From Octopus vulgaris (Eukaryota): a stretch of 64,000 nucleotides of DNA. Below are positions 13,433 to 48,991 of this stretch, piece after piece (positions within the stretch are counted from its first letter, which is position 1; the number at the start of each line of letters is the position of its first letter). The notes below the pieces were generated by a model. It was given only the letters and a program-made list of their open reading frames with translations. It ran no database searches and was not told the DNA's origin. The stretch covers positions 86,056,001-86,120,000 of the forward strand of contig OX597824.1 of the NCBI GenBank assembly GCA_951406725.2, read 5' to 3'. Made by a program: the position numbers and the translations under genes.

Positions 13433-13666
13433 AGCGGCGAGCTGGCAGAAACGTTAGCACGCCGGGCGAAATGAGTAGCCGTATTTCGTCTGCCGTTACG
13501 TTCTGAGTTCAAATTTCGCCCAGGTCGACTTTGCCTTTCATCCTTTCGGGGTCGATTAAATAAGTACCAGTTACGCACTGGGGTCGATATAATCGACTTC
13601 ATCCGTTTGTCAGTCCTTGTTTGTCTTCTCTGTGTTTAGCCCCTTGTGGGTAGTAAAGAAATAGGT
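13433..13666 (+). mobile_element. SINE family C (ggcgagctggcagaa... head, gtaaagaaataggt tail)
   Basis: tRNA-like head with B-box gagttcaaat. Copies at 13851-14070 (-, TSD taaaggcccattatttatc), 15827-16044, 28206-28420, 34288-34408, 62727-62960. Confidence 0.85.
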
Positions 13667-14573: not shown

Positions 14574-16280
14574 CGGTCTTGGAATGACGCTCGTGGGTTT
14601 TATACTTCTATAGGTCAGTTCTCAGTCATAATAATTGATAATGAGAATATCGATGATGATGTTGGTGACGATCGATGGGTTTACTAGCAACAACACTACA
14701 GCAAAATTTGGCCTTACAGCCAATACAACAGTAAATATAAATTATCCAGTCAAGTTTATTATTGCCACTGTTGTTGTTGTTGTTATAGTGGTTTTTGGTT
14801 GTTGCTTCGGCTGCTCTATTGCCAATCCTGTTTTCTAATGGAAAAAAAAAAGAATAAGGAAAAGGAAAAAATCCTATTAAATGGTGTCTTTGTTGTTTTT
14901 CTCTATAATAATCGCCCAGTTTACTGTCCAAGACACGTTGTCTCAGTCTGCGCCGCCGTCGTCGTCGTCGTCATCATCAGGAGTAACGATGCCATAAAAG
15001 AAACTTTCCCAACTGGTTTTACTTCATTGTGTTTGATCAGCTTTATATTTCAGTTGTCGTGGCTGTAGTGGGATTAGTACACGTGAAAAGAGTTATGCAC
15101 ATACATTTTTTACTTATATATATATATATATAAATGTTTTATATTTATGTGTACGTTTGTGTGTGTGTGTGTGTGTGTGTTTGTAAGAAGAATGGAAGCT
15201 TGGCTATATGTAAGGGTTAGGTGGGTTCTACGTGTATGTTAGTCGGAGGGTGAAGGAGTTTGAAGGACTGGAGAGGTGATGGTGGTGGTGGTGGTGGTGG
15301 AATTAATGGGAAAGTGGGTGAGTCGGTTGTGTACATAGGTTTGGAGGAATGTGTGTTAGTGGGCCTGAGTGGGTGGAGGAGTCTGTGTGTGTATGGGAGT
15401 GAAGGTGCATGTTTATAGAGGAAGAGGAATGGGGGCGATGGATTTATGCATCCTCCCTCTGTCTCTCTCTCTCTCTCGTACACATCTACTCTCAACTTGT
15501 AGCAATAATCAGACGTGGTGTGTTTCGTTTTATATTCAACTTAACGACCATCTGTAGTATTTGTAAAGGGAAAGAAAGCGATGTTTGGTGCGGATGGTAA
15601 CGGGAAGGACAGAGATGTGTTGTAATGATCGGTGATGATAACATCTCTGATCTAACGGTTGTCTTGTTGTTGTTGTTGGTGGTGGTATGGTTAACATAGG
15701 GACGTGTAGATGTGGTGGAAATAGCCACGATGGTAACGACGACCATGTTTTGACTGTTTTGTAATTATATAATTCCATTGACAACATCCAGGATGATTCA
15801 TAGGAATGATATTAAATCGACCCTAGGGCGGTGAGCTGGCAGAACCGTTAACACGCCGTATTTCGTCTGTCGTTACGTTCTGAGTTCAAATTCCGCCGAG
15901 GTCGACTTTGCCTTTCATCCTTTCGGGGTCGATTAAATAAGTACCAGTTACGCACTGGAGTCGATATAATCGACTTAATCCATTTGTCTGTCCTTGTTTG
16001 TCCTCTCTGTGTTTAGCCCCTTGTGGGTAGTAAAGAAATAGGTACTAATAAGGATAAAGAATTCAAAAAGTCATTTGTGTATCATACTTAATGTAAATAT
16101 ATCTAGTACTGCTTATGTCGATGGATTTTTTTTATTGAGCAGGGCGGTTGCCAGCAACACCAGTGATTGTTCTTCATTGCTTCCATGTGTATCTGTGGTG
16201 ATGGATTTCATCTGAACATACTGGTAGTGAGCACACATTATTGATAACACCTAATGAAGCTGAAATGCATCTAACGTTCC

Positions 16281-16536
16281 TGTAGTGACGCTACTGTGGA
16301 AGCATCGACGCTCAATGTTTGAGGCACTGCACTCCTTATCACATCCTGGCATCGCTGCTACCCTTAAGCTTATCACTGTTCTGTTTTTTCTGGACACGCA
16401 CTCGAGGGGGAGCCATGTAGTGACGCTATTTTGGAAGTTTTCAGCGCGCATGCGCAGAGTTGGATTACTTCTGGTAGGCCGCCGGAAGCCCCCTCGTGTG
16501 CATGCGCGCTGAAACTTCCACAGTAGCATCACTACA
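16281..16536 (+). mobile_element. Miniature TG..CA element with Gypsy integrase fragment, PPT, terminal inverted repeats and 4-bp TSD
   Basis: Ends tgtagtgacgctactgtggaag / cttccacagtagcatcactaca; ttcc on both flanks; encodes HRRSMFEALHSLSHPGIAATLKLIT; PPT-like gagggggagcca before a second tgtagtgacg at 16416. Confidence 0.8.
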
Positions 16537-18179
16537 TTCCCATTCATCCTGCTGAGACGAGTTCCGTCTCCTCCCATCATCACCATCATCGTCCTCATTT
16601 AACGTTCGTTTTCCATGCTGGCATTGAGTTGGTCGGTTTGATATCAGGAGCTGCACCAGACTCCATAATCTCTTTTGACTTGGTTTCTACAGCCTGATGC
16701 CCTTCCTAACGCCAACCACAATACAGTATGTACTGGGTGCTTTTTTTATGTGGCACCAATACTTCTTATATATACGTATTTCATTTTTAAACACTGTATC
16801 CATAGGAGATACTGTCTCCAGACGAATACTGCAGTAAATTTTACTTTCACAAAGTATTTACATTCAGTATGATACATAAATGTCTGTTTTAATCTACTAC
16901 TGCTTCTGTTGCATATAATGACTAAGAAATTTGCTGTTTAGCACTGCTATCTGGATATTCAGCCTGTTTTAGCAGCAATATGTTTTGGCACTGGCTCACA
17001 CACACATGTATATGTGCAGAAATATACACTAGCACATTGTGTGTGCATGTGTGTGTGAGTGAGTGTGTGTATGTGTGTGTGTGTGTGTGAGTGAGTGTGT
17101 GTGTGTATGTGAGTGTGTGTGTGTGTGTGTGTGTATGTGTGTGTGTGTGTGAGTATGTGTGTGTTTGCGTGTGTGTGTGTGAGTGAGTGAGTGAGAGAGA
17201 GAGAGAGATGTTACAGTCATAACTGAATGTTTACATAAACAGAGAGAGAGCAGGAGAGAATGAGAGAAATATTAAAAAGTCTGATGTCAAATAAGTCAGC
17301 ATTGACTCAGCTGCACCTAATCGTAAGCACCGAAATGGCTGTGCCAAAACGACTTGTACTGCAAGTCTGTTGAGGAAGATGGAATTAGGGAACATGGGTA
17401 AATCTAAAAGAGTGCAATTAGCATCAAATTTCATTAGTGCTTTCAACTGGGAAAACAGTTTTATATTTCCTTTTGAATATTTCTTCATCCGTCCTTCTGT
17501 GTATCTTTTAGGTGTGTGTGAGAGAGAGAGAAAGCTGTGGCCTTCACCTTATGTATACGTGTGTGTGTGTGTCTGTGTGTGTGTGGGGGGGGTTGCTTAA
17601 TCTCTGCAATCTCTGCTAATAATCTCTTCCTACCCACTGCCAGCCTGTTACTGCTGTAACTGGAATTGCTGAACGGAATTGCCAAAATCCTGTGGAATCC
17701 GTCCTCGTTGTTTGCTGAACTGGAGAAGAGTCCATTGCATGCTGCAGCAGGCAGTTGAGTTCTTCATTTCAACACAGCTCCGTCTGGATTCTGTCAGTGC
17801 ATTATAGGTATGTGTGTGTGTGTGTGTGTGTGGAGAGGGGTGGTGGGACTCCGAATGAATGGGAGGGTAGATGTGTGGTTGTGGTGGTGGGGTAGGAGTT
17901 TAAAACATGGGTGTTCCATGTCTGGCTGATTTTTATCTCTCACTCTCTCCCTCTCCTCTCTCACCATTCCTCTCTCTCGCTTTTTCTCTCCTTCCCTCTC
18001 TCTCCCCCCTTTTCTCTCCTTCCCTCTCTCTCCCCCCTTTTCTCTCCTTCGTCTCTTTCTCTCTCTCTCTCTCCCTCCCCTTCTGCTCATCTTTACACCA
18101 GGGTGGAGTAAGAGATGACTCACATTATTTATGCGTATGCATGTGTGCATGTGCTTGTTTGTATGGACACGTGTGCATG

Positions 18180-33984: not shown

Positions 33985-35957
33985 ATACTTCAGACCAATC
34001 CATTTGGATGTTTACTTTTCTTTCTTTTTCAGTTGTTCTGTCATCTAAATAAACAATCACAATTAGTTTGAGTTAAGGAGAGAACTCTTATGTGAATACT
34101 GGATCTGCTAGAAATAGCAGTCAGATCTCCTTCTAGTCACACTCAGCCATTTAAAAAAAGGAAAATATTAAACAATTAATGTAATCATAGGACCTCGATG
34201 TGGTCACTCAACATGCATGAAATAGCAGTCAGATCTCCAAATAGAAACACATTAAACAATGTTGCCAGAGGAGCTCTATAAATACATTTGGGGTCGATAA
34301 ATTAAGTACCAGTTACGCACTGGGGTCGATGTAATTGACTTAATCCGTTTGTCTGTCCTTGTTTGTCCTCTCTGTGTTTGGCCCCTTGTGGGTAGTAAAG
34401 AAATAGGTTCTACTCAGTTTTACCAGATGAGTGGACTGGAATAATGTGAATAAAATGTCTTGTTCAAGGATATAAGATGCCACCTGGTATTGGACTCATG
34501 ACCTTGTAATAATGAGCTGAATACCCTAACCACTGTCATACACCTTCACTCACACACACACACACACACATACAGAGTCACACATGCACATAAATGTTCA
34601 TGTGTGTGCCAGCCTCGCCTGGCACGTAAAAAGCACCCACTACACTCACGGAGTGGTTGGCGTTAGGAAGGGCATCCAACTGTAGAAACATTGCCTGATC
34701 AGACTGGAACCTGGTGCAGCCTTCTGGCTTCTCAGATCCTGGTCGAACTGTCCAACCCATGCCAGCATGGAAAACGGACATTAAACGATGATGATGATGT
34801 GTGCGTGTGTATATTTATATATACGTGGGTGTATATATAAATATATGTGTTTGTTAATTACTGTGTTTTCCATACTAACGTAAATGGGATGGGTAGATCC
34901 TGTTCTCTTTGTCAACTTTTCTTTGTCTTTGAAGTAAGTGATTTGTATTCTAGAGGTCTTCAAAAGCAAAGACCAGCTGGTCATAGTATCAATAATGAAT
35001 ATAAACATTAGGTAGTGCCCCAGTATGGCCACAGTCCAGTGGCTGAAACAAGTAAAAGATAAAAGATACCACTACTTTGCTCAAATGAGAACAAGTGTGA
35101 AATAAATCCTTAATATCCTTTAAAATGTTTTAGCCCGAAGGCCGCGGCCATGCTGGGGCACCACCTAATGTTTATATTCATTATTGATACTATCGACATT
35201 TATTTACATTTACATTTACATTGCATGCACCCCAACAATCAGAATACATGGCTGTACCGCCTGACTGGCCCTTGTGCCAGTGGCACATAAAAGCACCCTC
35301 TACACTCTTGAAGTGGTTAGCATTAGGAAGGGCATCCAGCTGTAGAAACTCTACCAGATCAAGATTGGAGCCTGGTGCAGCCATCTGGTTCGCCAGCCCT
35401 CAGTCAAAATCGTCCAACCCATGCTAGCATAGAAAGCAGACGTTAAACGGTAATGATGATGATGCGCACACACACACACACACACATACACACGTTCTAC
35501 TACTGAAATTTTGGGGGAGGAAGTAGTCAATCACGTCAGCCCCACTGCTCAACTGGTACTTATTTTAATGACCCCCCCCCAAAAAAAAAAAGAATGAAAG
35601 GTAAAGTTGACCATGGCACAATTTGAACTCAGAATGCAAAGATGGATGAAATACTGCTAAGCATTTTGTCTGGCATGCTAACAATTCTGCCAGCTTGCCA
35701 CCTTACGCACACACAAAATTTGAATTTTATTCTACTTGTGCAGCACAATTTCATATCAGTAAATAGATTTTACATTATTTGACATTAATATGCTTCTAGC
35801 AGGCTATTTCAAGTTTATTTTGGAAGTGGGGTGACTACACAATGCCAATGAGCAGCAAAATCTGTAAAACATTATGTGTTCTTTATTTATTTCCAGAGCA
35901 GTTTCATTTCACCTAGCATTTGAAGAATACTTTTTGTTTTAATACTATCATATTTAA

Positions 35958-48571: not shown

Positions 48572-48991
48572 TAGGGTGGCGAGCTGGCAGAAACGTTAGC
48601 GTGCCGGGCAAAATGCTTAGCGATATTTCGTCTGTCATTACGTGCTGAGTTCAAATCCCGCCGAGGTCGACTTTGCCTTTCATCCTTTCGGGGGTCATTT
48701 AAATAAGTACCAGTTACGCACTGGGGTCAATATAATCGACTTAATCTGTTTGTCTGTCCTTGTTTGTCCTCTCTGTGTTTAGCCCCTAGTGGGTAGTAAA
48801 GAAATAGGTATTTCGTCTGTCATTACGTTCTGAGTTCAAATCCTGCCATGGTCGACTTTGCCTTTCATCCTTTCAGGGTTGATAAATAAAGTACCAGTTA
48901 CGTACTGGGATCGATGTAATTGACTTAATCCGTTTGTCTGTCCTTGTTTGTCCCCCTCTATGTTTAGCCCTTTGTGGGCAGTAAAGAAATA
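48572..48991 (+). mobile_element. Dimeric SINE C (body duplicated)
   Basis: One head, two bodies joined at agaaataggtatttcgtctg; 14-bp TSD tatatcaaacagct. Confidence 0.85.

What the first reader, a model, noticed from the sequence alone, without database searches (positions are those of the whole stretch)
16281..16536. 256-bp element that looks half Gypsy retrotransposon, half TIR DNA transposon
Seen: TGTAG..CTACA termini with a 22-bp inverted match (1 mismatch), 4-bp TSD ttcc, an internal Gypsy integrase Zn-finger-region fragment (FEALHSLSHPGIAATLKLIT), a PPT-like gagggggagcca, then a 121-bp TG..CA unit (16416-16536) whose own ends form ~38-bp inverted repeats. Known: LTRs usually have only short terminal IRs, while Ginger (Gypsy-integrase-related) DNA transposons have TGT-starting TIRs and 4-bp TSDs. 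Inference: either a heavily deleted Gypsy with an unusually hairpin-like short LTR, or a miniature element on the LTR-to-Ginger path mobilised by an integrase.
Basis: partly seen in the sequence, partly recalled or inferred. Interest (0 to 1): 0.7.

Follow-up and report, generated by a model that had tools for sequence, protein, structure and literature searches.

The report
Retrotransposon miscopy with two left ends
This 256-base insert is a single, scrambled scrap of a common Gypsy jumping gene that carries the element's left end on both sides; it was likely made by a copying slip and likely pasted in whole by the element's own integrase, so it is a fossil of a recurrent error rather than a new kind of transposon.

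Summary
The described features are all present, but the reading changes. The 121-bp unit is not an LTR. The family LTR is 410-470 bp, and ordinary ~5-kb parents with RT, RNase H and integrase exist. The element is: U3 1-22, integrase scrap, PPT, U3 1-92, then U3 40-1 inverted. Both ends are therefore the LTR's left (U3) end, joined by 3-11-bp microhomologies. The two terminal U3 pieces are one subfamily and the inner U3 another, so at least two templates were used. The integrase/PPT junction is single-copy. The 4-bp TSD is real: a relative's contig shows the empty site with one TTCC. Five other closed U3-U3 inserts (≤500 bp) with different junctions exist in this genome (3 with perfect TSD, one of them ambiguous). 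Best explanation (0.6): a plus-strand strong-stop DNA mis-primed at a U3 palindrome and copied back onto itself, and integrase inserted the product. It is not Ginger, a MITE or a TRIM. The scan noted this class before, here and in other genomes (unchecked notes); ten literature searches found no description of it.

The parts
16277..16280 (.). Left copy of the 4-bp target-site duplication (TTCC)
   Evidence: empty site with one TTCC in run X6, contig 25
16281..16302 (+). U3 bases 1-22 of the family LTR, subfamily B type; left attachment end
   Evidence: 0 differences (median) from the 6 B-type starts, minimum 2 from the 30 A-type starts
16303..16393 (+). Integrase H2C2 zinc-finger-region fragment, joined to U3 over a GAA microhomology (16299-16301) plus one mismatched base
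   Evidence: 93-95% identical to L060, L062-L064; Pfam PF17921 E=0.0049; junction
16394..16402 (+). 9-bp integrase remnant after a 30-bp deletion (TGG microhomology)
16397..16415 (+). Pre-U3 segment and polypurine tract, joined to integrase by a 6-bp CGCACT microhomology across a ~1.25-kb deletion
   Evidence: 1246 bp in L062; junction single-copy
16416..16507 (+). U3 bases 1-92 of the ~460-bp LTR, subfamily A type
   Evidence: 93.5% to L007; minimum 6 differences from A-type against 11 from B-type starts
16497..16536 (-). U3 bases 1-40 inverted, subfamily B type; right attachment end. 16497-16507 is the 11-bp palindromic overlap with the A-type piece
   Evidence: 36 bp at 97% to B-type L012; junction
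16537..16540 (.). Right copy of the target-site duplication (TTCC)

Best explanation
The element is a single-copy, rearranged piece of an ordinary Gypsy LTR retrotransposon with the LTR's left (U3) end at both termini, likely built by template switching during reverse transcription and likely inserted whole by the family's integrase. Shown: the parts, the junction microhomologies, two subfamily sources, the 4-bp TSD and empty site, single copy. Inferred steps: (1) a B-type plus-strand strong-stop DNA stalls at about U3 base 40, on the self-complementary GCGCATGCGC; (2) it anneals to the second copy of that palindrome (U3 82-92) on a co-packaged plus-sense template of A type and primes minus-sense synthesis through U3 92-1 and the PPT; (3) RT jumps twice by microhomology (1.25 kb, then 30 bp) into the integrase region; (4) it finishes by copying back onto the 5' 22 bases of a B-type strong-stop DNA, most simply its own 5' end, which gives a panhandle with 22-bp inverted U3 ends; (5) after second-strand synthesis integrase joins both U3 ends and leaves the family's 4-bp TSD. 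The product lacks R, U5 and PBS, so it is predicted to be dead on arrival.
For: Every piece maps to the parent family and every junction has microhomology: 3, 3, 6 and 11 bp. Both terminal pieces are B type and the inner U3 is A type, so the right arm was not copied from the U3 next to it. [quoted passage not shown] TSD length equals the family's: 10 of 19 loci with both LTR ends found had a 4-bp TSD and none another length. Empty site in X6. The left flank with the U3-integrase junction lies in contigs of X1, X3, X18 and X20, the right end with flank in X1 and X20, so it is not an assembly artefact. Recurrence with different junctions: 5 other closed U3-U3 inserts of 376-493 bp, TSD match 4/4 in L083, L211, L217, 3/4 in L212, 2/4 in L215; L060 has a turn-back left end, a normal right end and TSD GTGT. 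L083 is a perfect 376-bp palindrome of a young sister family (copies 100% identical) centred on a natural AAGGCCTT. L081 has a 23-bp U3 cap on a GGG overlap, the same geometry as this left end. Intasome structures were built with 22-bp ends (PMC5329712, passages).
Against: No step of the copying was observed; microhomology junctions are also the mark of host end-joining and fork template switching. L211's flanks are mirrored over 9 bp, which fits host copying after insertion. L215 (2/4) and L081 (no second end or TSD found) lack a clear TSD. Ends other than U3 also turn back: L121 is U5-U5 (flanks CAAT/CAGT) and L123 has a U5 turn-back, so the process is not U3-specific. The lineage of the integrase scrap and PPT is unresolved: the other 6 of 7 PPT-plus-A-type starts end GAGCCT, this one GAGCCA like B copies, so a further A/B switch may be needed. 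The U5-U5 control search was swamped by a natural inverted repeat.
Confidence: 0.6

Rival explanations
1. Two-molecule integration plus host repair: integrase paired the U3 ends of two separate B-type cDNAs, inserted both at one site, and the host joined the two free inner ends by microhomology-mediated end joining, trimming them and capturing cDNA scraps.
For: Gives the same TSD and two same-type U3 ends; retroviral integrases insert two separate oligonucleotide ends in concert in vitro (PMC5329712, passages); all junctions have microhomology; U5-U5 forms exist (L121).
Against: The interior keeps parental order and strand (integrase, PPT, U3) as if read along one template with jumps. Turn-back points fall on natural palindromes or hairpins (here, L083, L060). 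In L060 and L081 the turn-back runs on through U3, PPT and 3' region on the opposite strand.
Confidence: 0.17
2. Post-insertion host rearrangement: a full-length copy with a B-type 5' LTR and an A-type 3' LTR inserted normally, then lost three internal stretches and had most of its 3' LTR replaced by an inverted copy of the 5' end through replication template switching that returned at the 4-bp terminal TACA.
For: Proviruses with unlike LTRs arise by intermolecular plus-strand transfer (PMC9278108, passages). The insertion is old enough to have decayed (5-7% from nearest copies). L211's mirrored flanks. Internally deleted copies with normal ends are common (L149, L163, L070).
Against: Needs four events, the last ending exactly at the terminus with the TSD intact. 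All 4 carrier runs with a contig across the left end already have the U3-integrase junction and none shows a longer form (contigs show presence only). L083 is a perfect palindrome with TSD in a family whose copies are 100% identical, leaving little time.
Confidence: 0.15
3. A non-autonomous TIR element (MITE-like or proto-Ginger) that moves as a 256-bp unit using a Gypsy integrase or Ginger transposase.
For: TGT..ACA inverted termini and a 4-bp TSD as in Ginger (PMC2836005, passages).
Against: Junction single-copy; each U3-U3 insert found has its own junctions; the integrase scrap belongs to an element with RT and RNase H; TIR 22 bp against 40-270 bp and TSD TTCC against CCGG/CCGT for Ginger1.
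Confidence: 0.04
4. Autointegration product: the cDNA's own end attacked its interior, giving an inversion that later integrated.
For: Inversion circles from autointegration are abundant in some plant retrotransposon particles (PMC7197481, passages).
Against: Autointegration joints should have an intact LTR terminus (..CA) fused to internal sequence; the internal joints here are microhomologies inside U3 and integrase, and both termini remain free for the host insertion.
Confidence: 0.04

Closest known systems
Ty3/Gypsy LTR retrotransposon, parent family in this genome (~5 kb, LTR 410-470 bp, PBS TGGTGACCCC; CsRn1 clade by recall and by note e1-9904579, not tested by tree)
   Same: All 256 bases derive from it; same TG..CA termini, PPT and 4-bp TSD.
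   Different: Both ends are U3; no R, U5, PBS or ORF; two LTR subfamilies in one insert; single copy.
Defective proviruses with RT-made deletions, inversions and asymmetric LTRs (HIV-1, PMC9278108, passages)
   Same: Template switching between co-packaged genomes, deletions and inversions, integrated by integrase.
   Different: The passages read describe direct LTRs; here the right terminus itself is an inverted left end.
Dead-end plus-strand strong-stop DNA of Ty3/Ty1 (PMC5371799, passages)
   Same: A free strand starting at U3 base 1 is the inferred primer and final template.
   Different: The passages do not describe such strands mis-priming or being integrated.
Ginger1/Ginger2 DNA transposons (PMC2836005, passages and Discussion)
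   Same: TGT termini, inverted ends, 4-bp TSD, Gypsy-type integrase sequence.
   Different: No transposase ORF, short TIR, no target preference match, no copies, parent has RT and RNase H.
Copy-back and snap-back defective genomes of RNA viruses (recalled, no call)
   Same: Polymerase leaves the template and copies the nascent strand's own 5' end, giving complementary termini.
   Different: Those replicate as parasites; this one was fixed once in host DNA.

Membership tests
Gypsy LTR retrotransposon (parent family) | Direct LTRs with TG..CA ends and TSD | tested here: met
   Pairs of 410-432-bp LTRs 96-98.5% identical; 4-bp TSD in 5 of 8 full-length copies at the printed ends
Gypsy LTR retrotransposon (parent family) | pol order RT, RNase H, integrase | tested here: met
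   L073, L074: RVT_1, RT_RNaseH, Integrase_H2C2, rve in that order
Gypsy LTR retrotransposon (parent family) | CsRn1 clade placement | not tested
   PBS TGGTGACCCC seen in 7 of 7 copies; its tRNA-Trp match and clade link are recalled; CsRN1 is common in cephalopods (PMC6238403, passages); no tree built
Intact or non-autonomous LTR element / TRIM (the 256-bp unit itself) | Two direct terminal repeats, PBS and PPT | tested here: not met
   Ends are inverted; no U5 or PBS; only the PPT is present
Intact or non-autonomous LTR element / TRIM (the 256-bp unit itself) | Multiple copies with the same structure | tested here: not met
   1 hit; only the window itself matches over the full 256 bp (40 of 665 candidates scored)
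Ginger1 | TGTNR termini and 4-bp TSD | tested here: met
   TGTAG, TTCC; shared with Gypsy per PMC2836005
Ginger1 | TIR 40-270 bp | tested here: not met
   22 bp
Ginger1 | CCGG or CCGT/ACGG target | tested here: not met
   TTCC; other inserts CACT, TATT, CTAG, GTGT
Ginger1/Ginger2 | Autonomous partner with integrase-like transposase and no RT/RNase H | tested here: not met
   The scrap maps to copies that carry RT and RNase H; no search for unrelated Ginger elements was made
MITE | TIR, TSD and many near-identical copies | tested here: not met
   TIR and TSD present, copy number 1
MITE / cut-and-paste element | Excision | tested here: inconclusive
   X6 shows a clean empty site without footprint, read as pre-insertion; X6 also has zero depth on U3 16461-16556

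The most novel reading that the evidence does not exclude
LTR retrotransposons make TIR-bounded, integrase-competent cassettes in one step: reverse transcriptase turns back at LTR palindromes and integrase inserts the two-same-end product, at roughly 1-4% of inserts in this genome, sometimes with pol sequence inside (this element, L215, L060, L121). This would be the missing step from Gypsy to Ginger1-type DNA transposons, which Bao et al. left as unclear and guessed to need a second, nested insertion.
Probability: 0.2. Interest if true: 0.7.

Novelty: new variant of a known kind. Interest (0 to 1): 0.38.

Why it matters
Alone it is a dead 256-bp scrap with no sign of function. As one of a class it matters in three ways. 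It suggests that a Gypsy integrase accepts two U3 ends in an animal germ line, one of them only 22 bp long. It is a likely fossil record of reverse-transcription intermediates and of two subfamilies sharing a particle. And it offers a one-step source of inverted termini, which bears on the open question of how Ginger1 transposons could arise from Gypsy (PMC2836005, Discussion). It also warns that such inserts look like MITEs to structure-based annotation.

Tried and rejected
121-bp hairpin LTR: rejected, family LTR about 460 bp. Mobility as a unit: rejected. Assembly fold-back artefact: rejected, flanks not mirrored and junctions lie in independent contigs. Fold-back on the same molecule: rejected for this element because the arms are of different subfamilies; it fits L083 and L060. 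U5-U5 control search: uninformative, most of the 36 sites are a natural 57-bp inverted repeat at the end of normal LTRs. Search for inverted ends up to 6 kb apart: gap not accepted, so the genome-wide search covers only 10-500 bp. One search gave 13 pairs at 12 loci; 4 loci (L213, L214, L216, L218) are unrelated palindromes, have no TSD and were dropped; L081 and L082 are ends of larger elements. In the survey the 'INV' flags of L145, L156 and L169 come from neighbouring unrelated hits and were dropped. The distance score of the right arm was distorted by its last bases; subfamily was read from the BLAST match and diagnostic bases. Raw-read runs X23 and X24 (3% read) and contigs of X5 gave no listed cover of the junctions: no evidence either way. 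No tRNA gene in the window. No A1-type copy with internal sequence was found. PMC1170264 not held. No supplements were read; they could hold examples of such inserts.

Full report
OBSERVATION. The window is G000:C11:86056001-86120000 of a 2.8-Gb genome; 'octopus-like' is an inference, also made in note e1-9904579. The peptide hits Pfam Integrase_H2C2 at E=0.0049, below the curated cut-off.

THE PARENT. A genome search with the unit gave 55 matches from 40 of 665 candidates scored; only the window matches over the full length, and most others stop at query base 227 or cover bases 19-113. The stopped matches continue into a 434-508-bp LTR ending GTTACA. Of 28 loci examined, 19 had both LTR ends; 10 of these had a 4-bp TSD and none a TSD of another length. 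Full-length copies of 4.7-5.4 kb with 410-432-bp direct LTRs (C subfamily), PBS TGGTGACCCC (7 of 7), PPT and a pol frame with RT, RNase H, H2C2 and rve exist. So the 121-bp unit is not an LTR and the parent is an ordinary Gypsy. The clade label CsRn1 is recalled and taken from note e1-9904579; PMC6238403 (passages) says only that this clade is common in cephalopods.

ANATOMY. On the plus strand: U3 1-22; integrase 91 bp; 30-bp deletion; integrase 9 bp; 1246-bp deletion; PPT; U3 1-92; U3 40-1 inverted. Overlaps at the four junctions, measured on natural copies, are GAA plus one mismatch, TGG, CGCACT and the 11-bp palindromic TGCGCATGCGC. Normal U3 holds this palindrome twice and folds 31-92 into a hairpin. 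At least two templates were used. The lineage of the integrase scrap and PPT is unresolved: the scrap is 93-95% like B-type copies but shares one base with A2 copies, and of 7 PPT-plus-A-type starts only this one ends GAGCCA.

COPY NUMBER AND SITE. The integrase/PPT junction occurs once at up to 2 mismatches (control 4). For the left junction only the window matches exactly among 242 sites; the first 100 were listed and the two 1-mismatch sites continue as normal LTR. Contigs of 4 of 8 runs laid (X1, X3, X18, X20; four organism labels) run from the left flank through the U3-integrase junction, and X1 and X20 cover the right end and flank. A contig of X6 (organism C, depth 42.6) joins 16280 directly to letters matching 16541 onward: the empty site, with one TTCC. 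The duplication was therefore made by the insertion. X5, X23 and X24 gave no listed cover of the junctions.

RECURRENCE. A pattern for inverted U3 ends 10-500 bp apart gave 13 pairs at 12 loci (control 3). Four loci are unrelated palindromes without TSD. Six are closed U3-U3 inserts from three LTR families: this one, L083 (376 bp, perfect palindrome, CACT/CACT), L217 (386 bp, TATT/TATT), L211 (473 bp, CTAG/CTAG but flanks mirrored over 9 bp), L212 (453 bp, 3/4) and L215 (493 bp, folded RT scrap and PPT inside, 2/4). Leaving out the window and L211's match, 2 of 5 perfect TSDs has p about 4e-4 at a 0.6% background. L083's arms are the first 188 bp of a ~555-bp LTR whose copies are up to 100% identical, and its centre is a natural AAGGCCTT; L217's arms come from a ~490-bp LTR with 4-bp TSDs. 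Two loci are turn-back ends of larger elements: L060 (4.4 kb, normal right end, GTGT/GTGT) and L081 (23-bp U3 cap, no TSD found). No two share junctions. Rate: the first 100 places fall into 76 elements besides the window; 61 were read at 10 kb, one at 3 kb, and 14 same-strand pairs were taken as normal without reading. Three of 76 have a U3 turn-back (L060, L081, L159=L212), one is U5-U5 (L121) and one has an internal inversion (L174). Two-start elements are over-sampled in that list. Against about 500 LTR starts genome-wide (568 minus 67 control, including one further sister family), the five A/B/C-type turn-backs give about 1%.

MECHANISM. [quoted passage not shown] The simplest path (inferred): a B-type strong-stop strand stalled at base 40 anneals through its self-complementary end to U3 82-92 of an A-type plus-sense template, is extended through U3 and PPT, jumps twice into integrase, then copies back onto its own first 22 bases; integrase inserts the duplex. 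This accounts for same-type termini, a different inner U3, parental order inside and the family TSD. Rivals are two-molecule integration with host joining (0.17), post-insertion rearrangement of a copy with unlike LTRs (0.15; such copies are known in HIV, PMC9278108, passages; L211 fits it), a mobile TIR unit (0.04) and autointegration (0.04; PMC7197481, passages). Sequence alone does not separate the first three fully, and U5 turn-backs (L121, L123) show that the process is not limited to U3.

COMPARISON. Against Ginger (PMC2836005; passages; Discussion read whole): TGT ends and 4-bp TSD are shared, but they are shared with Gypsy too; TIR length, target preference, copy number and an RT-less parent are not met. 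That Discussion calls the path from LTR element to DNA transposon unclear and suggests two LTRs in opposite orientation from a nested insertion. The inserts here show inverted LTR-derived ends likely arising in one event, but none was seen to move again. Ten searches (listings only unless named above) found no paper describing two-U3-end inserts; subscription papers are largely outside the library, so this is weak. The scan's own unchecked notes report the same class in this genome and others; they are not independent support, and my reading was entered before I saw them.

VERDICT. Real sequence feature and real TSD; a dead single-copy miscopy of a common Gypsy, one of a recurrent class. New variant of a known kind. 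Interest 0.38; novel reading probability 0.2, interest 0.7.

Noticed in passing
L121:2446-7354 (G000:C5:2022445-2027353): 4.9-kb copy with 485-bp inverted ends (3' LTR plus PPT, 96% identical) around gag-pol cut within the integrase C-terminal region; flanks CAAT/CAGT. Closest to a proto-Ginger layout seen here.
   Followed up: partly
L060:2895-7285 (G000:C2:57235394-57239784): Copy with a hairpin U3 left end, ~900-bp inverted duplication, normal 3' LTR and TSD GTGT; a SINE-like repeat lies inside.
   Followed up: partly
L083:1501-1876 (G000:C3:78442141-78442516): Perfect 376-bp palindrome of a very young sister LTR family with TSD CACT; best case to test in reads and individuals.
   Followed up: partly
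L187:757-1840 (G000:C7:36727256 onward): Element starting with an inverted U5 end, then U5, PBS and a U3 piece; other end not found.
   Followed up: partly
L061:5543-6290; L067:8037-8739; L127; L174:4598-4714: Further copies with internal inversions next to the PPT or 3' region.
   Followed up: no
L154, L156, L170, L176: About 2.8-kb LTR elements (LTR starts 2.3-2.4 kb apart), two with 4-bp TSD, 70-77% like the parent: candidate non-autonomous derivative.
   Followed up: no
Family LTR 3' end, e.g. L105-L113: Normal LTRs end in a 57-bp inverted repeat (TGTAACAGGAT..ATCCTGTTACA), so U5 as well as U3 is hairpin-prone.
   Followed up: no
window 16061-16099 and 16855-16893: 39-bp inverted repeat (87%) of a high-copy repeat around the insertion site.
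   Followed up: no
window 15830-16043; also 13631-13666, 34373-34408, 48774-48809: Copies of an abundant SINE-like repeat (label recalled).
   Followed up: no
L213, L216, L218: Unrelated palindromic repeat family whose arms extend beyond the TGTAATGAC pattern.
   Followed up: no
L078:3342-8948: Tandem head-to-tail partial copies of the element (2.16-kb period, 98.8%).
   Followed up: no
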